NCBI GenBank assembly: GCA_963699175.1
Contig: OY969418.1
Coordinates: 7,730,689-7,794,688 of the forward strand
Direction of reading: 5' to 3'
From: an uncultured Acidobacteriota bacterium
GTDB taxonomy: Bacteria; Acidobacteriota; Blastocatellia; RBC074
Length of the DNA stretch: 64,000 bases
The notes beneath the pieces were generated by a model, which saw only the letters and a program-made list of their open reading frames with translations, ran no database searches and had not been told where the DNA came from. Shown piece by piece: positions 27,090-52,745 of this stretch. Within the stretch, counting starts at the first letter, position 1; each line of letters starts with the position of its first letter. Position numbers and translations under genes: made by a program.

Positions 27090-27134
27090 AAGGGTAGCTA
27101 ACCGGCTGGTGTTGACGGCCAGACAAGCGCCTGC

Positions 27135-27938: not shown

Positions 27939-28035
27939 CGCGTTTTCTCCTGCGAGCTGTTGGGCTATCTACAAAGGCTCACACGCAAGCTAAACCTAGA
28001 AAAAACATTTTGGCAAACACCGCGCCAGCACGAGC

Positions 28036-29736
28036 CTAAAAGTCCGGCTCTTGATATTCCCCAAACACGGGCCGTAGCGCGTCGCACATTTCACCCAACG
28101 TGCAATCAGCGCGCGCACACTCAATCAGCAGCGGCATCGTGTTGGCCTGCTGGTCTTCCGCGCCTTTACGTAAAGCGTCGAGCGCGCGTTCAGCTTTGGC
28201 TTTATCGCGCCTCTCACGCAGCCGCGCCAGCCGCTCTGCTTGCAGCCCCGCCACCGTTTCGTCAATCAAGAGGATATTCGGCTCGCCGAGTTCGTTGCCT
28301 TCCATTTGATAGTCATTGACGCCGACGATGATCTTCTCACCGCGTTCGACCGCACGCTGATATTGGTAGGCCGATTCATGAATCTCCTTTTGCGGGAAGC
28401 CCAACTCAATGGCCTCGACCATTCCACCCATCGCGTCAATCTTGCGGAAGTACTCCCAGGTTTCCTCTTCGATGTCTTTGGTCAGCCGCTCGATGAAGTA
28501 GGAACCGGCCAGCGGATCAACTGTGTTGTTGGCGCCGGTCTCGTGCGCGATGATCTGTTGCGTGCGCAATGCAATCAGCGCCGCGCGTTCGGTCGGCAGC
28601 GCCAACGCTTCGTCGTAGCCGTCGCAATGCAGCGACTGCGTGCCGCCAATGACACCAGCCAGCGCCTGAATCGCCACGCGGATAATGTTGTTGATCGGCT
28701 GTTGCACGGTGAGCGAGACGCCCGCTGTCTGCGTGTGGAAGCGCATTTGCCACGAGCGCGGATTTTGCGCGTTGAAGCGTTCGGTCATCACGCGATACCA
28801 AATGCGCCGCGCCGCACGGTACTTGGCAATCTCTTCAAAAAAGTCGTTGTGTGCGTTGAAGAAGAACGACAGGCGCGGCGCGAACTCATCCACGTCCAGT
28901 CCCGCGCTGATGCCGTATTCGACGTATTCAATGCCGTCGCGCAGCGTGAAAGCCAATTCCTGCGCCGCCGTCGCGCCCGCTTCGCGAATGTGGTAGCCGG
29001 AGATTGAGATGGAATTCCACTTCGGCATCTCCTGCGCGCAGAACTTGAAGGTGTCCGTGATCAAACGCATCGCCGGGCGCGGCGGATAAATCCATTCCTT
29101 CTGCGCGATGTATTCTTTCAGGATGTCGTTTTGCAACGTGCCGCCAATGTTGTTCCACGCTGCGCCTTGCCGCTCCGCGGTCGCCAGAAAGAAAGCGAAG
29201 ATCATCGAAGCGGGCGCGTTGATCGTCATCGAAGTCGTAACTTGATCGAGCGGGATGCCATCAAAGAGCACTTCCATATCTTCACGCGACGCAATGGCCA
29301 CGCCGCACTTGCCGACCTCGCCCTCGGAAAACGGATGGTCGGAGTCGTAACCCATCAGCGTCGGTAGATCGAAGGCAGTAGACAAGCCTGTCTGGCCGTG
29401 TTCGAGCAGATATTTGAAACGCCGATTGGTATCGAAGGCCGAGCCAAAGCCAGCGAATTGCCGCATCGTCCAGGGCTTTGCACGATAGCCAGTCGGATGA
29501 ATGCCGCGCGTGTAAGGCGGCTGCCCCGGGAAGTTGATGTCGCGCGCGAAGTCAATGTCTGTTACGTCCTGCGGCGTGTAGAGCCGTTTAATCGGGCGCA
29601 GCGAGACGGTCGAAAACTCGCGCTGGCTTTCGGGCAGCTTCTTGAGCGAAGCCGCGAGCGTGGTTTCTTCCCATTCTTGTTGCAGTGCGTCGGGTTGATT
29701 CTCTAAGAGAGTGACATTAGTAGACGAATTGCTCAT
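28036..29736 (-). CDS. Methylmalonyl-CoA mutase large (catalytic, TIM-barrel) subunit
   Basis: It has the typical [33 protein letters not shown] and [23 protein letters not shown] blocks. The ATG at 29736 has an AAGGAG SD. The listed TTG at 29766 lies inside a REP-B arm. Confidence 0.9.
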
Positions 29737-29755
29737 TGTTTGGACTCCTTGGAAA

Positions 29756-29839
29756 ATGTCCGACAAGCTGCCAGCTTGTCGCTGACTTTGCTATGCGTCC
29801 AACCGAAAGACCGCGACAGGCTGGCAGCTTGTCGGACAT
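29756..29839. repeat. REP-B double-hairpin palindrome
   Basis: ATGTCCGACAAGCTGCCAGCTTGTCGC (29756-29782) pairs with GCGACAGGCTGGCAGCTTGTCGGACAT (29813-29839). Each arm is itself a small palindrome (CGACAAGC..GCTTGTCG). Confidence 0.8.
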
Positions 29840-29985
29840 TGCGAGAAACAGCCTGATTTTATTGGCGAAATCGTTCGTTCAGCCTTAAGTGGCGATGATA
29901 GTGGAGCATTACAAGGAGTGTCAAACAAGAGAACTTGGCGGCTACGTGCTTGTGCTGTGCTGAGTAGGCTGTCTGTTATTGCGGC

Positions 29986-31224
29986 TCAGGCGAAACTTTC
30001 CTCCGCCCTACCACGTTGCGAACGATAAATGAAATTAGCCCGGCCAAAGCGCACTTCACAGCCGTCATCCAAGCGCACTTCCTTGATGCGTTTGCCGTTG
30101 ACGAAAGTGCCATTGCTGCTGTCTAGATCGAAGAGCAAGTATTGATCCTCTTCGACGATCAAGCGGGCGTGGCGTTTGGAGACCGAAGGGTGTTCGATCA
30201 CGAAAGAGTTGTTGAGTGTACGCCCGACGAAGATTTCATCGCGGTTGAGGATGAAGGCGATGCGCTCGTCGCCATCCGGCGTGAACGAAACGAAGTGCGG
30301 GCGGTTGTCCAGATTTTCGCGCGCCGGAAGGCGGATGTTTGCGCCGCAGCGCATGCAGAACTTCGCGCCAGGGCGTTGTGGTTCGCTACAGACAGGACAT
30401 AGCTCCAGTTCTTCGGGATCAGGAATAATGACCCCACAACGCGGGCAAGGCATGCCGGCTTTGCCCTTCGCGCCGCATTGCTGGCAGTAACGGCGCGTCG
30501 GCATCAGCATCGTACCTTCGCGGTGTGGCGAAGTCTCGGCGTGATACTTAGTGCGTGAGCGTACCCACAGGAAGAGCGCAACCATCGCAATGACCAGCAG
30601 CACGAAAAAGCCATTGTGCCACTTGGTCGCGCCTTCCAGCATCGTGTTGAAGAGTGCATGCAACATTGCCGCAATCAGCCAGCCTTTGACGACAATGGGC
30701 GCGCGTTCACTGGTCAGGTTGGGTTTGGTCTTGGCTTCGCAGAGCGCCAGACCCCAGACAGCGGAGAAAAGCGCATGGCCAGGGTTCGAGAGTGGCCCGC
30801 GCAGCAATACAAACAGCGGATTGTTTTGCGAGATGTAGAAGATATTTTCGACGGCGGCAAAGCCTAGCGCGGCAGCGGCGCTGTAGATGACACCATCGAG
30901 CGGCTCGTCGAATTCCGGCTGGCGGTAAGCGTAAATCCAGACCATCAGCATCTTGATGCCCTCTTCGACCGGCCCGACGACGCAAAAGAAAAAGAGAATG
31001 TCCGAGATTTGCGTCTTGCCCGCAAACGCATAGAAGAGATTGCGCCCAATGACATTGAGGAAGAGCGCCGGAATCGTCGAGAACGCGCCCAGCGCAAAGG
31101 TGATGGCGATCAGCCGTAACGGCGGGCGTTTGTAACGGCTATGCGTGTAGAAGTAGACCAGCCAGACTACGCAAGGCAGCAGCGAGATGAAGGGGATGAA
31201 GATGAGTTTTTGCAGGTCAGTCAT
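29986..31224 (-). CDS. PrsW-family intramembrane protease + double zinc ribbon + C-terminal FHA domain
   Basis: PrsW motifs are VEEGIKML, GFAAVENIFY, HALFSAVWG and HALFNTMLEG. There are four CxxC pairs (CQQCG, CPRCG, CPVCS, CMRCG). The FHA segment is IFVGRTLNNSFVIEHPSVSKRHARL...LDSSNGTFVNG. Confidence 0.8.
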   Translation of the reverse strand: MTDLQKLIFIPFISLLPCVVWLVYFYTHSRYKRPPLRLIAITFALGAFSTIPALFLNVIGRNLFYAFAGKTQISDILFFFCVVGPVEEGIKMLMVWIYAYRQPEFDEPLDGVIYSAAAALGFAAVENIFYISQNNPLFVLLRGPLSNPGHALFSAVWGLALCEAKTKPNLTSERAPIVVKGWLIAAMLHALFNTMLEGATKWHNGFFVLLVIAMVALFLWVRSRTKYHAETSPHREGTMLMPTRRYCQQCGAKGKAGMPCPRCGVIIPDPEELELCPVCSEPQRPGAKFCMRCGANIRLPARENLDNRPHFVSFTPDGDERIAFILNRDEIFVGRTLNNSFVIEHPSVSKRHARLIVEEDQYLLFDLDSSNGTFVNGKRIKEVRLDDGCEVRFGRANFIYRSQRGRAEESFA

Positions 31225-31226
31225 TC

Positions 31227-31335
31227 GATTTTAGATTTTGGATTTTGGATTTTGGATGGCGGATTTGTTGAAATGCTGCTTGGTCTTGCTGCGCTAAATT
31301 CTCAATCCAAAATCCAAAATCTAAAATCCAAAATC
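31227..31335. repeat. Heptamer-hairpin (unit GATTTTG / CAAAATC)
   Basis: The left arm is GATTTTA GATTTTG GATTTTG GATTTTG GATGGCG GATTT. The right arm is AAATTCTCAATCCAAAATCCAAAATCTAAAATCCAAAATC. It exactly fills the gap between two same-strand genes. Confidence 0.85.
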
Positions 31336-33124
31336 AATTCTCTTCGCTCTTGCGTTTCAAAATCACCATCGTCAGGTCATCCACGCTCTTGGCTTTACCG
31401 ACGAAGCGTTGCAGGGCGTCGTCAATGCGGTCGCGCAGGCCGGCAGCGGTGCGCCCGCGATTGCGCTGGGCGATTTCGATCAGACGAGCTTCGCCGAACT
31501 CTTCTTCTTGCTCGTTGAGGCTTTCGGTCACGCCATCGGAATAGATTACCAGCACATCGCCGGGTTCAAGCTGCACCAAACCTTCATGATAATCGCCGAA
31601 GGGTGTGATACCGACCGGAAAACCGCCGATGTCCAGGCCCGTAACTTCACCCGAGGCGCGCACGAGGAGCGGCGAGTTGTGGCCACCGTTGATGTAGGTC
31701 AATTGATGCGTGCGCGGATCGAGTTCGCTGTAAAAGAGCGTCACATAGCGGTTGGCGGGCGTGTTGTCGTAGATGTAATGGTTGATCTCGCTGACGATCT
31801 CACTTGGCGAGAGCCGTGTGGTGGCTTGCGCGCGCACGGCGGCATGGATGGAAGACATCAGCAGTGCCGCGCCCGTTCCTTTACCCGATACGTCACCAAG
31901 TGCGATGACGTGACGACCGTCGCGCTTCTCGATGAAATCGAAGTAGTCGCCGCCGACTTCGTAACAAGGGAAGCTCACGCCCATCAAATCGTAACCTTCA
32001 ATGGACGGCGACGCCGAAGGGTGCAAGCGCAATTGAATTTCGCTGGCCAGGGCCAATTCGTTGGCAAGGCGCTTCTGCTCCTGCTGCGCGTCGAGCAGGC
32101 GGACGTTTTCGATGCGGATGGCGGCGACGCTCGCGATCAGCGTCAGCAGTTCAAGGTCGCGTTTGGTGAAACGGTTGGTGTGAACGGGGCTGTCAACGTA
32201 GATCATGCCCAGCACGCGCCCTTCGACCATCAAGGGCACGGCCATGATTGAGCGGATGCCGGTGAGCATGATGGATTGATTCGATTGGAAGCGCGGATCT
32301 TGTTGCGCGTCGGAGGTGAGCAGTGATTTGCCGTGCTGCAAGACCTGCTCGGTAATCGAGCGGCTGAGCGAAACTTCATTACTGTTCGGCCCGGTGCTGC
32401 GCAACTTTTGGGCTTTGCAAACGAGTTCGGGCGGCGCGTTCTTCTTGCCCTCCGGCGGTTCGAGCAGCATCACGTAGCCGCGATCTGCCTGGTTCACCTG
32501 AAAGACGCACTCCAGCACTTGCCCCAAGGTTTCGTCGAGCGACATCGGCGAGAGCAGCGTCACGCTCACGCGGCTGATGACGGCCAGCGTGTCGTCTTGC
32601 GAAGCGGTGACCGGCCCACTCGGTTGCACGCCAACTGGCCCGGATTTGTGCAGCGATTGCGCTAGCAGTGTTTGATGGCTGGAATCAATCGTAGTTAGCA
32701 GACTCTCCTTTGAATTGCGCGAGCCGGAGGCAATCGTCACTTCGGGAGCCGATGGATGCGGCGTGTCGGCCAGCAGCACCTGTGTGCGGCCTTTGGTGCG
32801 GCTCGTGTCGGCGCGGTCGTTGAATTCGATCTCAGTCTCGCCGATGCGGATGACATCGCCATCACGCAAGAGGGCTGGGGAAGTCAAGCGCGCTTCATTG
32901 AGCAGCGTGCCATTGGCGCTGCCCAGGTCGCTCAACCAAAAGCTGGTGTCGCCTTTCTTGCGCACTTCAGCGTGTAGGCGGGAGGCGAATGGGTCTTCCA
33001 AACAAAGATCGTTGCGCGCAGAACGGCCAATAGTGACGCGGGGACGATTCAATTCGGCAACCGAATCGCTACCGGGTGCGCTGGCGGAACCAGCGGGGGC
33101 AACACGAACAATCAAACGTGGCAT
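31334..33124 (-). CDS. FHA - GAF - PP2C/SpoIIE-type Ser/Thr phosphatase
   Basis: The FHA segment is VTIGRSARNDLCLEDPFASRLHAEV...LGSANGTLLN. There is a central GAF-like region. The phosphatase motifs are GGDYFDF, ALGDVSGKGTGAALLMS and YSDGVTE. Confidence 0.85.
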   Translation of the reverse strand: MPRLIVRVAPAGSASAPGSDSVAELNRPRVTIGRSARNDLCLEDPFASRLHAEVRKKGDTSFWLSDLGSANGTLLNEARLTSPALLRDGDVIRIGETEIEFNDRADTSRTKGRTQVLLADTPHPSAPEVTIASGSRNSKESLLTTIDSSHQTLLAQSLHKSGPVGVQPSGPVTASQDDTLAVISRVSVTLLSPMSLDETLGQVLECVFQVNQADRGYVMLLEPPEGKKNAPPELVCKAQKLRSTGPNSNEVSLSRSITEQVLQHGKSLLTSDAQQDPRFQSNQSIMLTGIRSIMAVPLMVEGRVLGMIYVDSPVHTNRFTKRDLELLTLIASVAAIRIENVRLLDAQQEQKRLANELALASEIQLRLHPSASPSIEGYDLMGVSFPCYEVGGDYFDFIEKRDGRHVIALGDVSGKGTGAALLMSSIHAAVRAQATTRLSPSEIVSEINHYIYDNTPANRYVTLFYSELDPRTHQLTYINGGHNSPLLVRASGEVTGLDIGGFPVGITPFGDYHEGLVQLEPGDVLVIYSDGVTESLNEQEEEFGEARLIEIAQRNRGRTAAGLRDRIDDALQRFVGKAKSVDDLTMVILKRKSEEN

Positions 33125-33137
33125 AGGGGATTCCTAT

Positions 33138-33264
33138 CAGGGAAAAGCAAAAGGCAAAAAGCAAATATCAAAAGGCAAAAGTGTAAAACCTGCCTTTTAG
33201 TTGAGAGAAGAAGGTGCCGACCTTAACTTTTGATATTTGCCTTTTGCCTTTTGATTTTTGACTG
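33138..33264. repeat. Heptamer-like hairpin (unit approx. CAAAAGG / CCTTTTG)
   Basis: The left arm CAGGGAAAAGCAAAAGGCAAAAAGCAAATATCAAAAGGCAAAAG pairs with CTTAACTTTTGATATTTGCCTTTTGCCTTTTGATTTTTGACTG. It fills the gap between the phosphatase start and the upstream gene's stop. Confidence 0.8.
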
Positions 33265-35061
33265 CTACCGCTCCTGAAAACTATTCTGGAAACTTTTGCC
33301 TGGCACCGGCTCTTTGCGCGCCTCGGCCTGTTTGGCTTGGGTCGCCTTGAGCAGCCCTTTTGACTGCCGCTCTAGTTCTTTTTGCTGGCGCTCTAGTTCT
33401 TTGCGCGCGGGTTTCTCAATCTGCTTGGCGGCATTCTGCGCGATCTGCGCATAAGGCCCCGCTTCACACTTCTTGAAATACTCGAAGGCTTTGATGAGTT
33501 GGCCCAGCCCTTTGTAAGAGCCACCGAGAAAGTAATAAATGTCCTTATCACTCGGCGTCAGCCGCACCGCCTCGTGCAACTCCTTGAGTGCCGCGCCGAA
33601 TTGGCCAATGTTGAAATAGCGCTTGCCTAATTCTTTGTGATGTTGCGCCACCAGCGTAGGATCGGGCGTCTCCAGCGGGCGCAGCGGATTGAAGTTCGAG
33701 AGTGAACGCGCACCAGGCGCGGCAAATGGATTTTGGGGAATCAGCGCAACTTGACTGCGCGCCGTTGTGTTGGGCAGCAGCACTGGCCCCAGGTTTTTCC
33801 GTCCACTCGTACGACGCGGACGCCCGCCCTGAGCGTGATTGCCCGGCGTCGCTTGCGCCAGCGCGTCATCCAATTCTTCGATAGCTTCGAGCGCCCGTGT
33901 CGCTTCCGGGCTGGATTGATTCATTGTGATGATACGTTGGTATTGTGCGCGCGCTTCGCTGAGATTGCCTTTGGCGCGATGCATCTCGGCCACCTTAAGC
34001 CGCGCGCTCAGATTTTCCGGCACCACCTTGAGCAGGCCATTGTAGGCTTTCAGCGCTTCATCTGTACGGCCTGCACCTTCAAAGGTCTCCGCCAGCAACT
34101 GGCGCGGTCCTGGCCGATCGGGCGTTAATTCAATCGCCTTGCTCAAATCTGCCGCTGCCGTTTCGACTTGGCCGCCTTGTCGTGCGCGTTCGGCATTTTG
34201 GATCAACTGCTCACTTTGATCTACGGGCGAAAGCAAGTTACGCCCCGCATTTTGCGCATTAGCTGAGTTGGCTCTTTGATTGTAATAAAGATAAGCCCCG
34301 CTACCCAGCAACAGGCAGGCTAACAGGCCCGCCGCCACGCGCAGGAACAAACCAGCTTGTGGGTGCTCGTGTAAACCAGAGGCCTCGGCCACCGCAACGG
34401 CGGGCGGCATTGATAGCTTGCCGGAATTTAAGCCAGTTGTCTGCAGCGGCCCTGAGTTGCGCGCCGCATTCGGCGGCAATGGCCCGGTTCTCACCTTAGG
34501 GGTTGGGTTGCTAGTCAACGGGCCGGAATTCCTGGCCAGGGCAGATACTACTGGGGGTGTAGCGGTCGTTAGTTGATTGGCCTGCGTGGTTACTTGCGCT
34601 GCCGCCAATTTGTCGGCGGCATTTTGGGCCAGGCGTTGCGATAGACTGCTGGCAGCCGTCTGTTTGATTTGACGCGCATCTTCTTCCTGTTTTTGCTCGA
34701 TGAGGTGCGCGGCGCGCTTACGCTGCTGATCTTTACTAGCTGCCAGCCGCTCACGTCTAGGTAGCGGCGGAGCCGGCGGTGGAGGCGGAATAGAAGTAGC
34801 GGCTTGTTCGGCTACCGGTTCTTCTGTCGCTGCGCTAGTAGCAGATTTACTGCTGGGGGAAGAAACGATGCGAAGTTGCGACTTCGCCGGTGAGGTAGCC
34901 GAATTAGCTGAACCTTGACCGTCAGGATTTGGCGCGTCGGCGCGCGGTTGGGCCGTGCTGGCTTTCGTCGCCTGCGTGTCTAAGTCAGTCCCACACTGAC
35001 GGCAGAATCTGGCGGCCACTCCATTTGCCGCTCCACAACTCCCACAATAATTCACAGTCAT
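33265..35061 (-). CDS. N-terminal zinc ribbon - low-complexity linker - TM - TPR repeat protein
   Basis: The zinc ribbon is MTVNYCGSCGAANGVAARFCRQCG. It is followed by an Ala/Pro/Ser-rich region, the TM LFLRVAAGLLACLLLGSGAYLYY and C-terminal TPR-like repeats. Confidence 0.7.
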   Translation of the reverse strand: MTVNYCGSCGAANGVAARFCRQCGTDLDTQATKASTAQPRADAPNPDGQGSANSATSPAKSQLRIVSSPSSKSATSAATEEPVAEQAATSIPPPPPAPPLPRRERLAASKDQQRKRAAHLIEQKQEEDARQIKQTAASSLSQRLAQNAADKLAAAQVTTQANQLTTATPPVVSALARNSGPLTSNPTPKVRTGPLPPNAARNSGPLQTTGLNSGKLSMPPAVAVAEASGLHEHPQAGLFLRVAAGLLACLLLGSGAYLYYNQRANSANAQNAGRNLLSPVDQSEQLIQNAERARQGGQVETAAADLSKAIELTPDRPGPRQLLAETFEGAGRTDEALKAYNGLLKVVPENLSARLKVAEMHRAKGNLSEARAQYQRIITMNQSSPEATRALEAIEELDDALAQATPGNHAQGGRPRRTSGRKNLGPVLLPNTTARSQVALIPQNPFAAPGARSLSNFNPLRPLETPDPTLVAQHHKELGKRYFNIGQFGAALKELHEAVRLTPSDKDIYYFLGGSYKGLGQLIKAFEYFKKCEAGPYAQIAQNAAKQIEKPARKELERQQKELERQSKGLLKATQAKQAEARKEPVPGKSFQNSFQER

Positions 35062-35430
35062 TGCTTTAATCCCCACAAAAGATCACTACAAGTTGGATGC
35101 TGTTGCACGGGGCTGACCACGCAGGAACGTAGCCATTGGGGCACAGTTTAACCACTCGTTGTTGGCGTGGTATTCAAGCCGGGATGCCATGGGGGATGGC
35201 CGCCGCTTGTGCCAACAAAACTCCGTCCCGGTGGGGAACGATCTTTAGTCTGTTGTAGCTACGGCGCGCTCATCATTGCATGATTGATGATGTGCCGCAA
35301 CCCTGCCGGGACGCCGAAATGATTAAAGCTCGGTTCGGTACAAACTAGAAAAAGGAAACGAGTCGCTCAAACAGAAATTTCAATTGGAGTTACCTTGGTC
35401 GTCAGCAAAAGCGAGTCGCCTGCTTAAGCC

Positions 35431-35949
35431 TTATTCTTTGACGACCAACGTACCGGCTAGCTTGTCGTGCCAGCCTTGCTGCTTTCCATCCCAAAGAGCC
35501 CAGAGTAAACCTAGTCCGCCACACAGCAGCGAGAGCGGGTAACCGATGAAATGCCTGATAGCCAGCGCGCGAAAATCCAGCGGCTGGCCATCGGCACGGA
35601 TCACGCGAATGCCGATAAAGCGTTTGCCAAAGGTCTGGCCATCCCGCTCGGCGTAATAGACCAAATTGAAAAACAGCACGCCTGCTGTGGCCAAATAGCC
35701 CAACAATAGAACGATGTTGGCCAACTCCGTCGCTTCCCATCGGCGTTTGATGGCGTAGGCTACCAGCACCGTCAACGAGAGCACCAGCATCGTCAAAATG
35801 TAATCGAGCAAAAATGCCCCGCAGCGCAAGCCCAAACTGGCCAACGCCGCTTGCTTTTTGCCACCAGCACGCTGACCGGGCGATCTGTCGGCAAAAGCCT
35901 GACTCGAAGCTGCATTGCTCATGCGAACAACGTGGGTGGTTTGGGACAT
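35431..35949 (-). CDS. RDD-family membrane protein
   Basis: CGAFLLDYILTMLVL, RDGQTFGKRFIGIRVIRADG and GWHDKLAGTLVV are typical RDD-domain blocks. Confidence 0.8.
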   Translation of the reverse strand: MSQTTHVVRMSNAASSQAFADRSPGQRAGGKKQAALASLGLRCGAFLLDYILTMLVLSLTVLVAYAIKRRWEATELANIVLLLGYLATAGVLFFNLVYYAERDGQTFGKRFIGIRVIRADGQPLDFRALAIRHFIGYPLSLLCGGLGLLWALWDGKQQGWHDKLAGTLVVKE

Positions 35950-35977
35950 CGCAGTGAATTCCAGAGAGTGTGTGTAG

Positions 35978-36066
35978 GTCGGTACTACAGGGAGCGATAG
36001 CGACCTAGTGATTTAGGTTGCGCTTAATGCGGAGAACCAGGTCGCCATTACTCCCTGTACCGCACC
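35978..36066. repeat. REP-A hairpin copy
   Basis: GGTCGGTACTACAGGGAGCGATAGCGACCT ... AGGTCGCCATTACTCCCTGTACCGCACC. It lies between the RDD and kinase genes. Confidence 0.8.
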
Positions 36067-36079
36067 ACGCGTGCCGGTC

Positions 36080-37609
36080 TCACGAGACGACGAATTTCAA
36101 CATCGTCTCACCGAGCTTAAGCTCGTCACCGCTCACCAGCGCGTGTAATTGTCCCTGTGGCAGTTTCTTGGTGCCATTGATAAAAGTGCCATTGGCGCTG
36201 CCCAGGTCTTCGATGAAGAACTGTGTATCGCGCGCGATGATCTTGGCGTGGCGGCGCGAGACGCGCGCCGCCGGGTCGTACTTCGACAAATCCACTTCGG
36301 GACGAATCCCGCGATTCGGATCCATACGGCCAATCAAGCTTTCGCCTTCGAGATTGAGCATGAACTGCGCGTTCATCTCGTTCGTGCCCAACACGACCAG
36401 CTTGGCCGTGGTGCGCTGGCGATGGCCACAATAAGCGCAAAAGACATCGCCCGTTGCCATCTCGCGCCCGCAGTTGCCACAGGTCTGTATGGGCGCAGGC
36501 GGCGCAGCGTAATCAATTTGCTGGCGCACCGGCCCGGCGTGACCTTGCAAGTGACGCAGGTGCTCGATCAAGTCCGCGCCAAAAGCTTTGGCCGACGCAA
36601 AGCGGTTCTCTGGTTTGTATTCGACCGAGCGGCAAATCAACTCTTCTAATTCCGGCGAGATTTCGGGATTGATCTGGCGCGGTTTCGGATTCTTGGCGAA
36701 ATCGAAGATCAGCAACGGATTGTCTTGCGGGTCTTGTCCCGTGAGCAGATGGAACATCGTCGCGCCGAGCGAATAGATGTCCGAGCGCGCTTCAACATTG
36801 CCCGCAAACAGCTCTGGCGGCGCATAGCCCATCGTGCCGATGGCCGTCACGCCTTTGACCGTCGGCGCGACGAAGCGCGCGATGCCGAAATCCACCAGCA
36901 TGATGCGATTCGTGCGCGCGTCCACCATCAGGTTGGCGGGTTTCAGGTCGCGATAAATGATCGGCGGATTCTGTGAGTGTATGTAATCGAGCACGTCGCA
37001 GATTTCAATGCCCCACTTGGTGACGGTCGCTTCGTCCAACTTACCACCGGCAGCACGTTGGCGAGCGGCCAGGTCGCCGCCGTCAATGAACTTCATCACG
37101 AGGTAGTAGCGGCCACGCGCCGTATCGAAGAAGTATTGCAGGATCGTCGGGATCGAAGGGTGATCGAGTTGCGCGAGCAGTTCGGCCTCGCGTTTGAAGT
37201 CGTCTATCGCTTTCACGCGCGCCGAGTCGTCGGCGAACATCTCGATCATCTCTTTGACTGCGACTTTGCGGTTGGCCAGGTTCTGATCTTCCGCTAGATA
37301 GACCGATCCCATACCGCCGCCGCCAATGCGCCGGACGATCTTGTAACGGTCGGCCAACAACGTCCCTGGCGGAAGTTGAATGCCTGAGGTGTTATTGCCG
37401 GATGCGCTCATACTCAAGTGTGACGTTCGCCCTGATTCTGTGTCTACGCCGGTTCCCATCCCCGCTTGCGTGCCTGCCCAGTTCGCAGCCCCGCGAGCGG
37501 GCGCTTGCGGTGGTGGCGGTGGCGCCGTAATGTCCTGAAGCCAGCCGCATTCGCCGCAATAAGGATCACCGGCTGTGGTGGGCGCGCCACATTCGGGACA
37601 GAATGGCAT
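36080..37609 (-). CDS. Zinc ribbon - Ser/Thr protein kinase - zinc ribbon - FHA domain protein
   Basis: The first zinc ribbon is MPFCPECGAPTTAGDPYCGECG. Kinase motifs are IGGGGMGSVY, VAVKEM, YRDLKPANLMV, DFGIAR and GTMGYAPPE. The second zinc ribbon is CGNCGREMATGDVFCAYCG. The FHA segment is LIGRMDPNRGIRPEVDL...VSRRHAKI...IEDLGSANGTFING. Confidence 0.9.
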   Translation of the reverse strand: MPFCPECGAPTTAGDPYCGECGWLQDITAPPPPPQAPARGAANWAGTQAGMGTGVDTESGRTSHLSMSASGNNTSGIQLPPGTLLADRYKIVRRIGGGGMGSVYLAEDQNLANRKVAVKEMIEMFADDSARVKAIDDFKREAELLAQLDHPSIPTILQYFFDTARGRYYLVMKFIDGGDLAARQRAAGGKLDEATVTKWGIEICDVLDYIHSQNPPIIYRDLKPANLMVDARTNRIMLVDFGIARFVAPTVKGVTAIGTMGYAPPELFAGNVEARSDIYSLGATMFHLLTGQDPQDNPLLIFDFAKNPKPRQINPEISPELEELICRSVEYKPENRFASAKAFGADLIEHLRHLQGHAGPVRQQIDYAAPPAPIQTCGNCGREMATGDVFCAYCGHRQRTTAKLVVLGTNEMNAQFMLNLEGESLIGRMDPNRGIRPEVDLSKYDPAARVSRRHAKIIARDTQFFIEDLGSANGTFINGTKKLPQGQLHALVSGDELKLGETMLKFVVS

Positions 37610-37671
37610 AACCAAATCTGAGTGCCGTGTGCTTGAGCCGCAAGCTTTGCTGACTCCGCACTCGGCGCTTT

Positions 37672-38412
37672 TCAATTCACTACAAATTTCAAAAAAGTTT
37701 TGCCGACGATGATCTCATCGCCGTTCTTCAAAGGTTGCTTGTTGCCGGGCAGCAAGCGCGGGCCGCGATTGACGAAAGTACCGTTAGTGCTGCCCAGGTC
37801 TTCGATCAAAAACTGATTGTTCAAAACCTGAATGCGTGCATGCCGCCGCGAGACTTTGGCTTCGGGGTCGTCCTGATCCAAATCTACATCGGGAAAGATA
37901 CCTCCGTCGGCATCCCAGCGCCCAATCATTGATTCGTCGCTGGTCAACGGAAACTCTTTGCCGACCTTGCCCCCGCGTTGAATGATAAGTTTAGCGCGCA
38001 TCGCAGTGGCCTCTGCATCGCCATCGGCCACTGCCACTCGGCTTGATGATGATGCATGTAAAGAACCCGTTTGCCCTTTGACGACATTGGTCAAATTGGG
38101 CTGATTGCTGACGGCCGTGGGGTTACCCCCCAGCGCCGGATTGACCGACGTATTAACCGGTGTAGACCGCGCAGGCTGGGCCGGTTGGGCAGCGGGTGGC
38201 GGCGCGGTATAGGGCGTCGCCGGTTTCGGCGCGACGTTCTCACGCGCGAACTGCGCTGGCGGCGGCGGCGCGAATTGCGGCGGCGGTGGCACCGCCGGTT
38301 TCTGCGCGGGCACGGAACGCACCGAAGCTGCCGCACTCAGCCGGTTTCCGCATTCGTCGCAAAATTCCGAGCCGTCCAGATTATCAGTGCCGCATTGATG
38401 ACATCTGACCAT
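37672..38412 (-). CDS. Zinc ribbon - Pro/Ala-rich linker - FHA domain protein
   Basis: The zinc ribbon is MVRCHQCGTDNLDGSEFCDECG. The FHA segment is MIGRWDADGGIFPDVDL...VSRRHARI...IEDLGSTNGTFVN, closely paralogous to the kinase FHA. Confidence 0.85.
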   Translation of the reverse strand: MVRCHQCGTDNLDGSEFCDECGNRLSAAASVRSVPAQKPAVPPPPQFAPPPPAQFARENVAPKPATPYTAPPPAAQPAQPARSTPVNTSVNPALGGNPTAVSNQPNLTNVVKGQTGSLHASSSSRVAVADGDAEATAMRAKLIIQRGGKVGKEFPLTSDESMIGRWDADGGIFPDVDLDQDDPEAKVSRRHARIQVLNNQFLIEDLGSTNGTFVNRGPRLLPGNKQPLKNGDEIIVGKTFLKFVVN

Positions 38413-38826
38413 AGTCCTCTTGCCTCCACTCAGGGCAAACCCGACGCAGCTTGGAACGGAGGAGCCTAGTGCATAATCGCCTTGGCTCGTTATCTTGCCT
38501 GGGTTTGCTGCGGGAAAGCGTTACCGCTGCTTGCCGATGATGAGTCAATAGCTCCACAAACGACGCTGCATTCTACAACGTTCATTATGCCTATGCCAGT
38601 TTTGTTTGCAACCGCTAAGTGCTCATGGTTTGCAGTCGCAAAAAGTCTGCGCTGCGCAGGCTTGGACAGGTTGTGTGAGAGATCTGTGAGAGAGCTGAAT
38701 TGATGATTAGCAAGGCAAATTGCTTTGCTTTCCGTCCATCTGTTACCATCCACCGACTTGTTAGTCGCCTGTGAAATGGCTGTAATTCTCCAAACCGTCG
38801 CCGAGCAATTGCTAGGAGTTGCCGCT

Positions 38827-39471
38827 ATGCTGAAACGCCGAATACTATACGTCTTAATTCTGTCGCTGCTCTTCGCGTTGGCGCTCGCCTGTGGGACGCG
38901 TATGGCTACGCGCACACCCAGCGGCACACCGCCCGCTGGGTTGAATGTGGCGCGCGTTCGCCAACTACTGCAAACCATCGGAGGCAGCAACCTGAAGCCA
39001 CAACAAATCGAGATTAAGAGCATCTCCACCGGCGTCGGTGCTGACAATGCCGTTGTCGAAGCCAGGCTTGAAACGGCCTTTCGTTTCTCGCGCGCCAGCG
39101 GTGACTGGCAGGTCGCCGAAATAAGGCTTGGCGATCAGCAGTGGGAGTCTATCGAATTGATTGAGACAGCGCTGCGTCAGGAAAAAGGGCGACGCACGAC
39201 GGGACTGCTGCGGCGCGTGGCTGATGGATTGGAAGCTTACCACCGCGAAAAAGGACAGTTCGTCCCGACCGAGGATTTCGGTGTGTTGCTCGATCATCTA
39301 TCGCCGCGTTACCTGACTGACCCGTTGCGCGTTGACTGGTGGGGTACGCAGTTCGTCTATCGCGGCACGGCTGGGAATTATCAACTGCTTTCTGCGGGCG
39401 CGGATCGCAAGGCCGGTACGAAGGATGATCTGGTGATTGAGAACGGCGTGCTGCGCGCTGAGAAAGAATGA
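38827..39471 (+). CDS. Lipoprotein with a GspG (type II secretion pseudopilin) C-terminal-like domain
   Basis: The lipobox is LFALALAC|G after the ATG at 38827. DPLRVDWWGTQFVYRG...YQLLSAGADRKAGTKDDLV resembles the GspG globular-domain signature. Confidence 0.55.
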   Translation: MLKRRILYVLILSLLFALALACGTRMATRTPSGTPPAGLNVARVRQLLQTIGGSNLKPQQIEIKSISTGVGADNAVVEARLETAFRFSRASGDWQVAEIRLGDQQWESIELIETALRQEKGRRTTGLLRRVADGLEAYHREKGQFVPTEDFGVLLDHLSPRYLTDPLRVDWWGTQFVYRGTAGNYQLLSAGADRKAGTKDDLVIENGVLRAEKE

Positions 39472-39513
39472 AATTTGTCGGCTGTTGTGCAAAGCCCCTG
39501 ACCACTGACTGCC

Positions 39514-39987
39514 ATGCAATACATCTCTGTTGAAAATCAGAAAGCTGTAGATCAAACCTACCGTTTGTCGGTCATCATCGTGCTTGCTTTTTGCTTCACG
39601 CCAATTCTATTGATGGCGCTGGGACGCTTCATCCACGCGAGAGCGGCGTACTATGACCCCGCGACGCTCGAACTGATTAAAAAGCTGGCCTACGGGAGCA
39701 CGCTGCTTTTCGGGTTGCTAGTCGTCGCGTTGCGTCGCTTCGGGATGGCCTGGCTCACGGGCAAACGCCAACGTTCGGTGAGCAGCGTACTGAGCAATTT
39801 GCGCTTGCTCACGCTCATCAGCGCAGTGCTGGGTGAGTTGGTGGCGCTCACCGGGTTTGTCGCTTTCTCCCTGACGAGCGATTATGAATATTGCTGGCGC
39901 TTGGGGGTGGTTAGCTTGCTCTTGATTTTGTACAGCTTCCCGCGCCGCTGGGATTGGGATCGTGCGGTCGCCCACGCGCAAGCTTGA
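39514..39987 (+). CDS. Hypothetical 4-TM membrane protein
   Basis: 157-aa ORF with four hydrophobic segments and no recognisable motif. Confidence 0.5.
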   Translation: MQYISVENQKAVDQTYRLSVIIVLAFCFTPILLMALGRFIHARAAYYDPATLELIKKLAYGSTLLFGLLVVALRRFGMAWLTGKRQRSVSSVLSNLRLLTLISAVLGELVALTGFVAFSLTSDYEYCWRLGVVSLLLILYSFPRRWDWDRAVAHAQA

Positions 39988-40030
39988 GTCGCTGCGGCCG
40001 TTCACTTGTTTACGTGTTTTTGAGGTGCAA

Positions 40031-41371
40031 ATGCCTGGGAATGATTTGAAGATGTGCCAGTCCTGTCGCGCGCTGATTCCGGCGAATGCCGCGCGTTGCG
40101 AGATGTGCGGAGCTGAAGGTCACTATGCCGCGCGCGCTGGTGTCAGCACGGGCGAGAGCTTCAGCCTGTTGACCAATTGGCCAGTCACGACGCTGCTGTT
40201 GACGCTCAATGTGCTGATCTATGCGTTGACGCTGCTCTATCAATTGCGGCTCTTTGCGCAATTGGATGATGCGCCGGGCTTCTCGATGTCGCCTTACCCA
40301 ATCGTGAACGACGGCTTCGGAACTTCACATCCGGGCATACGGCAGAACGGCGAATGGTGGCGCTTGCTGGCGTCGTGCTTTCTGCACGGCGGCCCGATTC
40401 ATTTGCTCTTTAACAGTATGGCGTTGATGCAGGCGGGCCGGATCGCCGAAGAAGTTTTCGGGCGTTCGCAATACATCTGCCTGTACATATTGGGCGGCAT
40501 AGGCGGAAATCTGCTGGCCATCATGTTCGGTTCGCGTGTAGTGGGCGCGTCGGGCGCGCTCTTCGCGTTAATCGCGGCGCTGGCGGTCTACGGCTACAAA
40601 CGCCGTGACACGCTGGGGCGGAGTTTGCGGCAGGACATGATCTATTGGCTGCTCTACGGCCTGGCCATCAGCTTTCTGCCGGGCATCAGTATGGCCGCGC
40701 ACGCAGGCGGCGCAGTGGTTGGCGCGGCGCTGGCCTTCTTGTTGCCGGATGAGGAACAGTTGCGGCAAAGCTTCCTACGCATGCGGCTCGCGAAAGTCTT
40801 TGGGACAGTGGCTTGGTTGTTGATTTTGGGTACGGGCGTGCTGATGGCGCGCAACGTTCTCAGACAGGATGAAATGATTCGCGTGGCTACGTCGGCCGAG
40901 CGTGTTTACACGGTCTGGCTCAATCATCTGCAACTCAACAAGCTGGTGGCAGGCGCACGGCTGAAACAAACCGGCGGCGCAGCCGGGAGCGAATTGCCAG
41001 ACCTCGCCACGCTGACCAAGCGCATAGATCAGACACAGCGCGCCCTGTGCAGCGACATCGGCGCGCTCGAACGCTTGCCAGTCACCGATGAAGAGAGTGG
41101 CCAGTTGTATCGCCGCATGGCCAGCAATCTGCGCACGCGTTGCGATAAAATGCCAGCCTTGCCCAAAGAGGATAACGACGCGGCTTTGCAACAAGCCTTG
41201 TCCAATTTTCAAAGTCAGGCTGAGCAGGGCAAAGAATTGGATGAGTTGATGAAGCAGTACGAACAATGGCTGGCGCGCAAAGCTGACGGCTTGCGCATGC
41301 CGGTCAAGGCGTTGAAGCCACGCTTGTCCAGTGAGACAATTACCCCCGACGAGTTGGAGAACAGCAAATAA
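40031..41371 (+). CDS. Zinc ribbon - rhomboid intramembrane serine protease - C-terminal coiled/helical extension
   Basis: GAGGTG SD and ATG at 40031. The zinc ribbon is CQSCRALIPANAARCEMCG. Rhomboid motifs are WRLLASCFLHGGPIHLLFNSMAL, GASGALFALI and AHAGGAVVGAAL. Confidence 0.85.
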   Translation: MPGNDLKMCQSCRALIPANAARCEMCGAEGHYAARAGVSTGESFSLLTNWPVTTLLLTLNVLIYALTLLYQLRLFAQLDDAPGFSMSPYPIVNDGFGTSHPGIRQNGEWWRLLASCFLHGGPIHLLFNSMALMQAGRIAEEVFGRSQYICLYILGGIGGNLLAIMFGSRVVGASGALFALIAALAVYGYKRRDTLGRSLRQDMIYWLLYGLAISFLPGISMAAHAGGAVVGAALAFLLPDEEQLRQSFLRMRLAKVFGTVAWLLILGTGVLMARNVLRQDEMIRVATSAERVYTVWLNHLQLNKLVAGARLKQTGGAAGSELPDLATLTKRIDQTQRALCSDIGALERLPVTDEESGQLYRRMASNLRTRCDKMPALPKEDNDAALQQALSNFQSQAEQGKELDELMKQYEQWLARKADGLRMPVKALKPRLSSETITPDELENSK

Positions 41372-41401
41372 GGCGATTGCGACATTGAGGTGAAGAGAGG
41401 A

Positions 41402-52671: not shown

Positions 52672-52745
<74 letters not shown>

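What the first reader, a model, noticed from the sequence alone, without database searches (positions are those of the whole stretch)
29986..38412. FHA / zinc-ribbon phospho-signalling island with an intramembrane protease
Seen: six consecutive same-strand genes have short spacers that are filled by repeat hairpins. In transcription order they are: (1) ZnR-linker-FHA, (2) ZnR-STK-ZnR-FHA, (3) RDD membrane protein, (4) ZnR-TM-TPR, (5) FHA-GAF-PP2C and (6) PrsW-double ZnR-FHA. Four of the six carry FHA domains and four carry CxxC-x(9-13)-CxxC ribbons. The FHA domains of (1) and (2) are close paralogues (GR.D...GI.P.VDL...DP...VSRRHA.I...F.IEDLGS.NGTF.N). Established: FHA domains read pThr written by Hanks-type kinases and erased by PP2C phosphatases. 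PrsW is a site-1 protease in regulated intramembrane proteolysis. Actinobacteria have an FhaA/FhaB-PstP-PknA/B cluster tied to cell-wall synthesis. Inference: this island has the kinase, phosphatase and FHA logic of that cluster. However, RodA/PbpA are replaced by a protease-FHA fusion, an RDD protein and a TPR protein. This suggests an undescribed pathway in which pThr signalling gates intramembrane proteolysis. The recurrent zinc ribbons may act as a shared docking or membrane-proximal module.
Basis: partly seen in the sequence, partly recalled or inferred. Interest (0 to 1): 0.8.

Follow-up and report, generated by a model that had tools for sequence, protein, structure and literature searches.

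The report
Blastocatellia FHA–kinase–RDD–phosphatase operon with PrsW
This is a real six-gene operon, conserved across one class of soil Acidobacteria, that combines a Ser/Thr kinase, a phosphatase, four phosphothreonine-reading FHA domains and three membrane proteins including an FHA-tagged PrsW protease; it is an uncharacterised variant of a familiar signalling theme, and the protease is an add-on rather than its core.

Summary

Gene order is conserved well beyond this genome. Of 80 non-redundant, fully informative Blastocatellia loci, 53 carry the six-gene arrangement, and their flanks are unrelated.

The interpretation needs correcting on four points:
- **Core versus accessories.** The invariant core is four genes: ZnR-FHA, ZnR-kinase-ZnR-FHA, RDD and FHA-GAF-PPM phosphatase. 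The ZnR-TM-TPR gene and the PrsW-DZR-FHA gene are accessories. They are absent or unlinked in 27 of the 80 loci.
- **Prior description.** PrsW fused to FHA or Zn-ribbon domains was already noted as a "signaling peptidase" in 2012 (PMC3482391).
- **Actinobacterial comparison.** The resemblance to the Fha/PstP/PknAB cluster is only generic.
- **Hairpins.** The spacer hairpins are genome-wide repeat elements, not features of this island.

The likely mechanism is inferred. The soluble kinase phosphorylates conserved Thr motifs, such as the phosphatase linker TxxL and E-x-T-I. FHA domains then assemble the proteins on the RDD membrane protein. Where PrsW is present, it acts as a pThr-controlled output.

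Verdict: a new variant of a known kind, of moderate interest.

The parts
37672..38412 (-). g1: Zn-ribbon, Pro-rich linker and FHA adaptor (246 aa). It is a stand-alone paralogue of the C-terminal ZnR-FHA module of g2.
   Evidence: Pfam FHA 60.9 bits and Zn_Ribbon_1 28.2 bits. 49% identity to the g2 FHA, and its ZnR aligns to the second ZnR of g2. Present in every informative locus except one. The linker motif PKPATPYTPPPP is conserved in most orthologues.
36080..37675 (-). g2: soluble Hanks-type Ser/Thr kinase with an N-terminal Zn ribbon and a C-terminal Zn ribbon + FHA (531 aa as listed). The real start is probably the ATG at 37609.
   Evidence: Pkinase 144.9 bits, FHA 53.3 bits, two Zn ribbons. 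No hydrophobic helix. The motifs VAVK, YRDLKPAN, DFG and APPE, and activation-loop T277/T281, are conserved in 57 orthologues. Orthologue alignments begin at residues 20-25.
35986..36059 (.). Hairpin in the g2|g3 spacer (24-nt arms). A member of a repeat family also seen at 18894-18955.
   Evidence: RNA MFE -40.7 kcal/mol, z -7.6.
35431..35949 (-). g3: RDD-family membrane protein with three hydrophobic helices (172 aa). It is the invariant membrane component of the core.
   Evidence: Pfam RDD 93.2 bits. Helices at 45-63, 79-97 and 134-152. R42, D49 and D161 conserved. Present in all loci that carry g2 and g5.
35077..35430 (-). Long g3|g4 spacer (354 nt) without a large hairpin. Possibly an internal regulatory region.
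   Evidence: The median g3|g4 spacer across species is 288 nt, the longest of the five. No Rfam family matches.
33265..35076 (-). g4: Zn ribbon, low-complexity linker, conserved juxtamembrane motif (VLAQASGL, about 225-235), single TM (241-259) and TPR domain (603 aa). An accessory gene and the fastest-evolving of the six.
   Evidence: TPR_11 64 bits and Zn_Ribbon_1 23 bits. TM helix. Motif alignment. 26-54% identity across species. Absent in 20 of 80 informative loci.
33143..33258 (.). Hairpin filling the g4|g5 spacer. Its arms are made of AAAAGGC-type heptamer repeats.
   Evidence: MFE -44.5 kcal/mol, z -7.4. Hairpins of the same design occupy the same spacer in L093, L094 and L098.
31334..33124 (-). 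g5: FHA-GAF-PPM (SpoIIE-type) phosphatase, soluble (596 aa). Its FHA-GAF linker carries the conserved motifs T114-x-x-L and E-x-T130-I131.
   Evidence: SpoIIE 175 bits, FHA 72.6 bits, GAF 66.2 bits. T130 conserved in 99 of 102 orthologues and I131 in 100 of 102, across all clades. TxxL is conserved in most clades.
31227..31335 (.). Hairpin filling the g5|g6 spacer. Its arms are GATTTTG heptamer repeats, and the 3' arm abuts the g6 start codon.
   Evidence: MFE -41.6 kcal/mol, z -7.9. The orthologous spacers of L093 and L094 carry GAATGCG and GAAGGAT heptamer hairpins.
29986..31224 (-). g6: PrsW-family intramembrane protease (8 helices), invariant juxtamembrane ETSPHREGT, double Zn ribbon (8 invariant Cys) and FHA (412 aa). 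An accessory output gene.
   Evidence: PrsW-protease 146 bits, FHA 71.9 bits, DZR 27.6 bits. E87, E88, K91, E126, N127, H150, H189, eight Cys, G334, R335, S349 and N371 are invariant in 22 sequences. The AF2 model shows eight helices then a beta-rich domain. Only two full-length 50%-identity clusters among 1.84 billion representatives.
38413..38724 (.). Divergent intergenic region between g1 and the opposite-strand envelope operon. Presumed promoter region.
   Evidence: Two weak sigma-70-like matches on the minus strand, not above the shuffle expectation.
38725..43516 (+). Divergent operon: u1 (lipoprotein with a T2SS-G-like domain), u2 (4-TM protein), u3 (Zn-ribbon rhomboid protease) and u4 (secreted TPR protein). 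Loosely associated with the cassette.
   Evidence: Pfam. u1-u2-u4 lies divergent to g1 in 16 of 93 unique loci, spread over several clades. The rhomboid is present only in the window's clade.

Best explanation
This is a class-specific (Blastocatellia, Acidobacteriota) Ser/Thr phospho-signalling operon.

**Invariant core (four genes)**
- g2: a soluble Hanks kinase carrying its own ZnR-FHA module.
- g1: a stand-alone ZnR-FHA paralogue of that module.
- g3: an RDD membrane protein.
- g5: a soluble FHA-GAF-PPM phosphatase.

**Accessories.** One large clade has added a type-II membrane ZnR-TM-TPR protein (g4) and a PrsW-DZR-FHA intramembrane protease (g6).

**Shown**
- The domains and their conserved catalytic and pThr-binding residues.
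- The conserved order of the genes.
- The split between core and accessory genes.
- Conserved Thr motifs outside the domains.

**Inferred mechanism**
- g2 autophosphorylates its activation loop and phosphorylates conserved Thr motifs. Candidates are the g5 linker TxxL and E-x-T-I, the g6 juxtamembrane ETSPHREGT, and the Pro/Thr-rich g1 linker.
- The four FHA domains read these marks and assemble kinase, adaptor and phosphatase at the membrane on the RDD protein. RDD would act as anchor and/or intramembrane sensor.
- The GAF domain lets a small ligand tune the phosphatase that resets the system.
- Where g6 is present, its cytoplasmic FHA couples this pThr state to PrsW activity or substrate choice. 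Cleavage of a membrane partner then becomes the output. The partner would be g4, which has the same N-in single-pass layout as the PrsW substrate RsiW, or RDD.
- The envelope-type neighbours suggest the process being controlled lies in the cell envelope.
For: - **Domains.** Confirmed by Pfam.
- **Conserved order with unrelated flanks.** L016 has a CheB/R histidine kinase upstream and a TonB receptor downstream. L018 has UvrD upstream and an ECF sigma downstream. L020 has an amidohydrolase upstream and a PAS protein downstream.
- **Counts over 80 fully informative unique loci.** 48 have the full six-gene order. Four have a divergent insert at the g4 position. One has no detectable g1. 19 have g1-g2-g3-g5 only. 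Seven have g1-g5 without g6. One has g1-g2-g3-g5-g6.
- **Operon-like junctions in other species.** In L016, g5 and g6 overlap by 8 nt and the g3-g4 gap is 4 nt. In L020, g2 and g3 abut.
- **Conserved active sites.** The protease, kinase, phosphatase and FHA sites are all conserved.
- **Conserved Thr motifs.** g5 T130 is present in 99 of 102 orthologues in all clades, and TxxL in most. g6 T238 is 100% conserved.
- **Pairwise fusions of the membrane parts elsewhere.** PrsW-RDD (P0157, P0271, P0272). PrsW-TPR (Pseudanabaena plasmid protein). RDD-TPR (P0274; weak, 24.3 bits against a 27.2 cut-off). PrsW-DZR without FHA is common. The C-terminus of the PADLOC PD-T4-6 kinase model matches g3 RDD weakly.
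- **Literature precedents.** The RDD protein SppI binds and inhibits the membrane protease SppA (PMC7568657). RDD is proposed to have an intramembrane binding site facing the cytoplasm (PMC12419801). PrsW-FHA and PrsW-ZnR fusions are proposed to be signal-gated peptidases (PMC3482391).
Against: - There are no experimental data of any kind for this family.
- g6 and g4 are dispensable or unlinked in about a third of loci. Proteolysis therefore cannot be the core function.
- g6 occurs without g4 (L140, L175) and g4 without adjacent g6. This weakens the case for g4 as the obligate substrate.
- The PrsW-RDD fusions form one small lineage and have no FHA or kinase neighbours.
- The C-terminal TPR of the PrsW-TPR fusion would lie on the cytoplasmic side. 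The g4 TPR is predicted to be periplasmic.
- The RDD tails carry no conserved Thr.
- Strong hairpins sit between the genes, and the 354-nt g3|g4 spacer may break the unit into separately regulated transcripts.
- The assignment of phospho-acceptors rests only on conservation.
Confidence: 0.6

Rival explanations
1. Classical regulated intramembrane proteolysis of an anti-sigma-like factor. Under this reading g4 (cytoplasmic Zn domain, TM, extracytoplasmic domain) is an RsiW-like anti-sigma factor, and g6 is its site-1 protease. The kinase and phosphatase would merely tune this process.
For: g4 has the same overall layout as RsiW: an N-terminal Zn-binding module, a single TM helix and an outside domain. 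It also has a strongly conserved juxtamembrane motif. g4 and g6 were both added in the same broad clade. One relative (L018) has an ECF sigma gene directly downstream of g6.
Against: There is no sigma factor in the cassette, either in the window or in most relatives. The g4 Zn module matches generic Zn_Ribbon_1 and DUF7577, not a ZAS/zf-HC2 domain. g6 exists without g4 in L140 and L175, and g4 exists without adjacent g6 in seven loci.
Confidence: 0.15
2. The four-gene core is a self-contained RDD-centred kinase/phosphatase switch whose output is not proteolysis at all. The output might be RDD-mediated transport or lipid-linked sensing. PrsW-FHA would be just one more client that reads the same pThr marks, with no feedback onto the module.
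For: The core occurs alone in 19 of 80 loci, with variable opposite-strand genes after g5. In one clade g6 has moved to another contig and keeps its FHA domain. An RDD protein has been reported as a cation/H+ antiporter (PMC5996927, listed; described in PMC7568657).
Against: Where g6 is present it is almost always the last gene of the same operon, sometimes overlapping g5. PrsW-RDD fusions and the SppI-SppA precedent argue for a direct link between protease and RDD.
Confidence: 0.2
3. An anti-phage or conflict system in which a kinase/phosphatase sensor controls a membrane protease effector.
For: The g2 kinase domain matches the PADLOC PD-T4-6, mad6 and PglW kinase models. A Response_reg-TIR gene lies 2 kb downstream. 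The flanks of the cassette differ between clades.
Against: - The kinase matches cover the generic catalytic domain only.
- g1, g5 and g6 have no PADLOC hit.
- There are no full-length relatives on viral contigs or plasmids.
- GC content equals that of the surroundings.
- The cassette appears once per contig wherever it was found in this class, with divergence that tracks across its genes. This pattern fits vertical inheritance.
- The TIR gene is not syntenic in relatives.
Confidence: 0.04
4. Chance adjacency of unrelated FHA and Zn-ribbon genes in a genome rich in such domains.
For: FHA, Zn-ribbon and TPR domains are common in Acidobacteria. Other kinase genes lie near some relatives (L008, L148, L150).
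Against: The same order and strand occur in 53 of 80 informative unique loci, down to 50% g6 identity, with unrelated flanks.
Confidence: 0.01

Closest known systems
Bacillus subtilis PrsW - RsiW - sigmaW site-1 regulated intramembrane proteolysis
   Same: g6 has a PrsW-family membrane domain (Pfam 146 bits). It has eight helices and invariant EE..K, E-N, H and H motifs. g4 has the single-pass, N-in, Zn-module layout of RsiW.
   Different: g6 scores 111 bits against the PrsW equivalog cut-off of 225. It carries a cytoplasmic double Zn ribbon and an FHA domain. No sigma or anti-sigma pair is present. The trigger would be cytoplasmic pThr rather than envelope stress acting on the substrate.
'Signaling' PrsW peptidases fused to FHA, Zn-ribbon, PilZ or cNMP-binding domains (Zhang, de Souza, Anantharaman, Iyer, Aravind 2012, Biol Direct, PMC3482391)
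   Same: This is the same architecture class. That paper already proposes that such PrsW versions cleave proteins in response to signals sensed by the fused domains. PrsW + DZR proteins of about 290 aa are the closest non-FHA relatives.
   Different: The paper gives a one-sentence note from domain architectures. It describes no gene neighbourhood, no kinase/phosphatase/RDD partners and no lineage. The PrsW-DZR-FHA family found here is confined to two 50%-identity clusters.
Actinobacterial FhaA/FhaB-PstP-RodA-PbpA-PknA-PknB cluster
   Same: One operon combines a Hanks kinase, a PPM phosphatase and several FHA proteins with membrane proteins. The FHA domains resemble FhaA, FhaB and GarA in fold and sequence.
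   Different: The kinase is soluble, with no TM helix or PASTA domain. The phosphatase is a soluble GAF-SpoIIE type rather than membrane PstP. There is no SEDS or PBP gene. No NCBIfam equivalog cut-off is reached.
SppA-SppI (YteJ) membrane protease complex of B. subtilis
   Same: An RDD-family membrane protein is encoded next to a membrane protease, binds it and inhibits it (PMC7568657). This offers a model for g3 acting on g6.
   Different: The protease family is different (the SppA serine peptidase, not PrsW). There is no phospho-signalling. The g3-g6 interaction is untested.
GarA/OdhI and Bdellovibrio DgcB: FHA domains that bind a phosphorylated tail of their own protein to switch an activity
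   Same: These are the best structural matches to the g6 FHA domain. In g5, conserved Thr motifs lie 10-35 residues after its FHA domain. This is compatible with an intramolecular pThr-FHA switch on a fused enzyme.
   Different: The regulated enzymes here are a PPM phosphatase and an intramembrane protease. Phosphorylation of these motifs has not been shown.
Type VI secretion threonine-phosphorylation pathway (PpkA-PppA-Fha1/TagH)
   Same: The logic is the same: a kinase, a PPM phosphatase and an FHA scaffold controlling a membrane machine post-translationally.
   Different: There are no T6SS genes. The TagH model scores 35-53 bits against a cut-off of 120.

Membership tests
PrsW family intramembrane protease (Pfam PF13367 / MEROPS M82) | Match to the family HMM above the curated threshold | tested here: met
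   g6 residues 35-219 score 146.3 bits against a cut-off of 23.5.
PrsW family intramembrane protease (Pfam PF13367 / MEROPS M82) | Conserved catalytic motifs (EExxK/R, a second acidic motif, two His) within membrane helices | tested here: met
   E87, E88, K91, E126, N127, H150 and H189 are invariant in 22 family members and conserved in 77. The mapping to B. subtilis PrsW residues is from memory and was not aligned here.
PrsW family intramembrane protease (Pfam PF13367 / MEROPS M82) | About eight transmembrane helices | tested here: met
   The AF2 model has eight helices between residues 2 and 231, with a mean pLDDT of 74.
B. subtilis-type PrsW (NCBIfam equivalog NF033739) acting on RsiW/sigmaW | Score above the equivalog cut-off, with an anti-sigma/sigma partner | tested here: not met
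   111 bits against a cut-off of 225. There is no sigma or ZAS anti-sigma gene in the cassette.
Hanks-type Ser/Thr protein kinase | Pkinase HMM match with intact catalytic Lys, HRD-like, DFG and APE motifs | tested here: met
   144.9 bits. VAVK, YRDLKPAN, DFG and APPE are conserved in at least 95% of 57 orthologues.
PASTA kinase PknB/Stk1 (NF033483), as in the actinobacterial cluster | TM helix plus extracellular PASTA repeats, and an equivalog score | tested here: not met
   199.7 bits against a cut-off of 450, kinase domain only. g2 has no hydrophobic helix.
Actinobacterial Fha-PstP-RodA-PbpA-PknAB cluster | Adjacent SEDS (RodA) and class B PBP genes, and a PstP-type membrane PP2C | tested here: not met
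   None of the six products, nor their neighbours, matches these families. g5 is a soluble FHA-GAF-SpoIIE protein.
PPM phosphatase, SpoIIE/RsbU type (PF07228) | HMM match with conserved metal-binding Asp motifs | tested here: met
   175.1 bits over residues 402-591. The GDVSGKG, SDG and DDLT motifs are conserved in at least 95% of 68 orthologues.
FHA domain (PF00498), pThr-binding competent | Conserved Gly-Arg, Ser-x-x-His and Asn-Gly-Thr loop residues | tested here: met
   All four FHA domains score 53-73 bits. GR, S..H and NGT are invariant or nearly invariant. Foldseek's top hits are GarA, FhaA, OdhI and DgcB FHA domains.
RDD family (PF06271) | HMM match, three TM helices and conserved Arg/Asp/Asp | tested here: met
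   93.2 bits. Three helices. R42, D49 and D161 are conserved.
Known anti-phage defence systems (PADLOC-DB 2.0) | Specific matches to more than the generic kinase domain | tested here: not met
   Only the g2 kinase domain matches (PD-T4-6, mad6, PglW). g1, g5 and g6 have no hit.
T6SS threonine phosphorylation pathway | TagH/Fha1 equivalog and neighbouring T6SS genes | tested here: not met
   TIGR03354 scores 35-53 bits against a cut-off of 120. No T6SS genes lie in the neighbourhood.
pThr-gated PrsW proteolysis (the functional claim) | The kinase phosphorylates a partner, the FHA domain of g6 binds it, and cleavage depends on this | not testable with these tools
   The only support is the conservation of candidate Thr motifs and of gene order.

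The most novel reading that the evidence does not exclude
An RDD membrane protein is the receptor or anchor of a soluble Hanks kinase/PPM phosphatase pair. In the six-gene version, FHA-mediated reading of pThr marks directly gates a PrsW intramembrane protease. This would be the first bacterial case of Ser/Thr-phosphorylation-controlled site-1 intramembrane proteolysis, and the first signalling role assigned to the RDD family.
Probability: 0.3. Interest if true: 0.75.

Novelty: new variant of a known kind. Interest (0 to 1): 0.5.

Why it matters
Kinase/phosphatase/FHA modules are well known in bacteria, but their membrane outputs are understood in only a few cases. This cassette is found in many members of one abundant class of soil bacteria. 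It ties such a module to two poorly understood membrane families: RDD, whose function is unknown, and the 'signaling' PrsW proteases, which have never been studied experimentally.

The cassette offers a defined and conserved set of partners. It also offers candidate phospho-motifs for testing two questions: whether cytoplasmic threonine phosphorylation can control intramembrane proteolysis, and what RDD proteins do.

A partial version (g4-g5-g6 on a contig that begins inside g4) was seen in a MAG labelled Chloracidobacterium sp.. Whether a cultured Blastocatellia strain carries the cassette was not checked, so an experimental system is possible but not yet established.

Tried and rejected
- **Structure search.** Foldseek of the AF2 model of g6 against the PDB returned only FHA-domain matches. 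Nothing matched the membrane domain.
- **PDB sequence search.** The PrsW domain and the RDD protein found no solved relatives.
- **RNA families.** Rfam found no family in 27000-42000.
- **Promoters and terminators.** The scans were not above the shuffle expectation, so they say nothing about transcript boundaries.
- **Defence systems.** PADLOC gave only generic kinase matches.
- **Mobile elements.** Viral-contig and plasmid searches found no full-length relative.
- **Literature.** Searches for PrsW+FHA, RDD+FHA+PP2C and Blastocatellia+FHA found no description of this cassette. One further search failed on syntax.
- **PrsW-RDD fusions.** Their neighbourhoods (P0157, P0272) contain no FHA or kinase genes, so they support only a physical link between PrsW and RDD.
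- **Dehalococcoidia PrsW-DZR loci.** These also lack the cassette.
- **Hairpins.** I considered that they might be island-specific regulators and rejected this. They are members of window-wide repeat families and occur in only a quarter to 40% of orthologous spacers.
- **Other phyla.** I could not test for the core cassette outside Blastocatellia. Every capped search returns its best 80-120 hits, and Blastocatellia orthologues saturate these lists.

Full report
**1. Observation**

Pfam confirms every domain call:
- g1: Zn ribbon + FHA.
- g2: Zn ribbon + Pkinase + Zn ribbon + FHA.
- g3: RDD.
- g4: Zn ribbon + TPR, with a single hydrophobic helix at 241-259.
- g5: FHA + GAF + SpoIIE-type PPM.
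- g6: PrsW-protease + double Zn ribbon + FHA.

g1, g2 and g5 have no hydrophobic helix and so are soluble. The FHA domains of g1 and g2 are 49% identical over 108 residues. The g1 Zn ribbon aligns with the second ribbon of g2, so g1 is a free-standing copy of the C-terminal ZnR-FHA module of g2. Other FHA pairs are only 35-36% identical.

Orthologue alignments suggest that g2 really starts at the ATG at 37609. No NCBIfam equivalog threshold is reached by any of the six proteins. For example, g6 scores 111 bits against 225 for PrsW, and g2 scores 199.7 against 450 for the PASTA kinases.

**2. Hairpins**

Three of the five spacers are almost filled by long hairpins: 35986-36059, 33143-33258 and 31227-31335. 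A fourth hairpin lies downstream of g6 at 29755-29840. As RNA they fold with z-scores of -7.4 to -9.6.

They are not specific to the island. The same designs recur at 685, 18894, 43616, 51204 and 57623. Two of the three spacer hairpins (33143-33258 and 31227-31335) have arms built from tandem heptamers.

In close relatives the same spacers hold hairpins of the same design but with different heptamers. Across species, only about a quarter to 40% of each spacer type is strongly structured. I read them as genome-wide REP-like elements that settle in intergenic gaps. They may affect mRNA stability or translation, since the 3' arm of one abuts the g6 start codon, but they do not define the system.

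**3. Conservation**

*The g6 family.* g6 has at least 388 relatives. The best 120 all share the PrsW + FHA architecture, at 59-95% identity. Every source name is Blastocatellia, Acidobacteria or Chloracidobacterium.

*Context look-ups.* Three relatives at 61-64% identity show the same six genes in the same order, with unrelated flanks. Several gene junctions there are only a few bases long or overlap.

*Species-representative genomes.* Two scans, one anchored on g6 and one on g2, gave about 170 loci, all from Blastocatellia or Acidobacteriota MAGs. A few carry obviously wrong Firmicutes labels. tblastn of the window's proteins against these loci, followed by de-duplication, leaves 116 unique loci. 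Of these, 80 are fully informative:

| Arrangement | Loci |
|---|---|
| g1-g2-g3-g4-g5-g6 | 48 |
| A divergent insert in place of g4 | 4 |
| No detectable g1 | 1 |
| g1-g2-g3-g5 only | 19 |
| g1-g5 without adjacent g6 | 7 |
| g1-g2-g3-g5-g6 | 1 |

A second species with g1-g2-g3-g5-g6 turned up.

*Where g6 is missing.* Genes downstream of g5 are variable and mostly on the other strand, so the unit ends at g5 in those loci. In one clade (g2 77% identical) g6 is retained but lies on a different contig of the same MAGs, next to unrelated genes.

*Conclusion on structure.* The invariant core is g1, g2, g3 and g5. g4 and g6 are accessories of a large clade.

*Rarity of the architecture.* Among 1.84 billion representatives at 50% identity, only two clusters have the full PrsW-DZR-FHA architecture. 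The next relatives are PrsW + DZR proteins of about 290 residues without FHA. Dehalococcoidia PrsW-DZR loci lack the cassette.

*Not mobile.* No full-length relative occurs on viral contigs or plasmids.

*Limit.* I could not test other phyla for the four-gene core, because capped searches are saturated by Blastocatellia orthologues.

**4. Residue-level evidence**

- *g6.* In 22-77 orthologues the following are invariant or nearly so: the PrsW motifs (E87, E88, K91, E126, N127, H150, H189), all eight ribbon cysteines, the FHA pThr-binding residues (G334, R335, S349, N371-T373) and a juxtamembrane ETSPHREGT segment at 230-238.
- *g2.* The kinase motifs and activation-loop threonines are conserved.
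- *g5.* The PPM metal-binding motifs are conserved.
- *g3.* It keeps the R/D/D signature.
- *Motifs outside domains.* The g5 linker just after its FHA domain has T130-I131 in 99-100 of 102 orthologues from all clades, and a T-x-x-L motif in most. g1 has a conserved PKPATPYTPPPP motif. g4 has a conserved VLAQASGL motif about ten residues before its TM helix.

These are candidate phospho-acceptor or docking sites. That reading is inference.

**5. Links between the membrane parts**

PrsW-RDD fusion proteins exist, in three clusters of one lineage. A PrsW-TPR fusion is encoded on a Pseudanabaena plasmid. There is also an RDD protein with a weak TPR-like match (24.3 bits against a 27.2 cut-off). 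The C-terminus of one PADLOC PD-T4-6 kinase model weakly matches g3, which hints at kinase-RDD fusions.

In the literature, the B. subtilis RDD protein SppI forms a complex with the membrane protease SppA and inhibits it (PMC7568657). RDD has also been proposed to hold an intramembrane binding site facing the cytoplasm (PMC12419801). Together these make a physical complex of RDD, PrsW and TPR plausible.

**6. Mechanism (inferred)**

- The soluble kinase autophosphorylates and marks Thr motifs on g5, g6, g1 and possibly g4.
- The four FHA domains read these marks and assemble the proteins at the membrane on RDD.
- The GAF-controlled phosphatase resets the state.
- In six-gene versions, the cytoplasmic FHA of PrsW couples this state to cleavage of a membrane partner.
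- g4 has the layout of RsiW, the known PrsW substrate. It is not obligatory, because g6 occurs without it.
- A divergent operon of envelope proteins (a lipoprotein, a 4-TM protein and a secreted TPR protein, plus a Zn-ribbon rhomboid in this clade) is linked in 16 of 93 loci. This hints at an envelope-related role.

**7. Comparison with known systems**

The cassette works like other kinase/PPM/FHA modules, such as actinobacterial Fha-PstP-PknAB, the T6SS threonine phosphorylation pathway and GarA-type switches. It is a member of none of them: every equivalog test failed and their signature partners are absent.

Its protease belongs to the PrsW family but not to the B. subtilis PrsW equivalog. 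Zhang et al. 2012 already noted that PrsW is fused in several bacteria to FHA and Zn-ribbon domains, and proposed signal-gated cleavage. The concept is therefore not new. I found no paper describing this cassette, its RDD-centred core or its lineage.

**8. Verdict**

The feature is real and conserved. It is a new variant of a known kind. Interest is moderate, at 0.5.

Noticed in passing
window 685-779, 31227-31335, 33143-33258, 51204-51283, 52711-52744; L093 12883-13018 and 14815-14898; L094 12332-12474 and 14254-14343; L098 12446-12551: These are intergenic hairpins in which one arm is 4-6 tandem copies of a heptamer and the other arm is its reverse complement. The heptamer differs from site to site and between species at the same site (GATTTTG, AAAAGGC, GAATGCG, GAAGGAT, GGGAGAA, AAGAATG). 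RNA folding z-scores are -7.4 to -7.9 and there is no Rfam match. From memory, they resemble cyanobacterial STRR heptamer repeats and REP elements. They look like a lineage-wide repeat class worth its own study.
   Followed up: partly
window 18894-18955 and 35986-36059; 29755-29840 and 57623-57716; 43616-43693: There are two further hairpin families with shared arm sequences (GGAGCGATAGCGACC... and GACAAGCTGCCAGCTTGTCG), plus a 29-nt perfect-arm palindrome. All are intergenic.
   Followed up: no
window 39962-41371 (+): This is a rhomboid intramembrane serine protease with an N-terminal CxxC...CxxC Zn ribbon and a long C-terminal extension. It is inserted into the divergent u1-u2-u4 envelope operon only in the window's clade (L093, L094). 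It is a second Zn-ribbon-tagged intramembrane protease within 2 kb of the island.
   Followed up: partly
window 38725-39471, 39514-39987, 41390-43516 (+): A divergent operon encodes a lipoprotein with a T2SS-G-like domain, a 4-TM protein with no Pfam match and a secreted 708-aa TPR protein. It lies head-to-head with g1 in 16 of 93 unique loci spread over several clades. It may be functionally connected to the cassette.
   Followed up: partly
window 27135-27938 (-): This is a Response_reg receiver fused to a TIR domain (TIR_2 77 bits), with weak PADLOC SAVED_TIR hits. It is not syntenic with the cassette in relatives.
   Followed up: no
L016 15962-20101: In one relative, a kinase-TPR, PP2C_2 and vWA gene trio lies 5 kb downstream of the cassette. 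It appears to be a separate kinase/phosphatase/vWA module.
   Followed up: no
record titles of L022, L028, L031, L034, L036, L037, L044, L046-L048, L149, L151 and others: Many MAGs that carry this Blastocatellia-type cassette are labelled 'Heliomicrobium', 'Heliobacteriaceae' or 'Clostridia' in their records. These are probably taxonomic mislabels in the source assemblies.
   Followed up: no
L183 3980-5680 (Pseudanabaena sp. ABRG5-3 plasmid NZ_AP017563.1): A 566-aa protein annotated only as 'tetratricopeptide repeat protein' is in fact an N-terminal PrsW protease domain (80.6 bits) fused to TPR repeats.
   Followed up: partly
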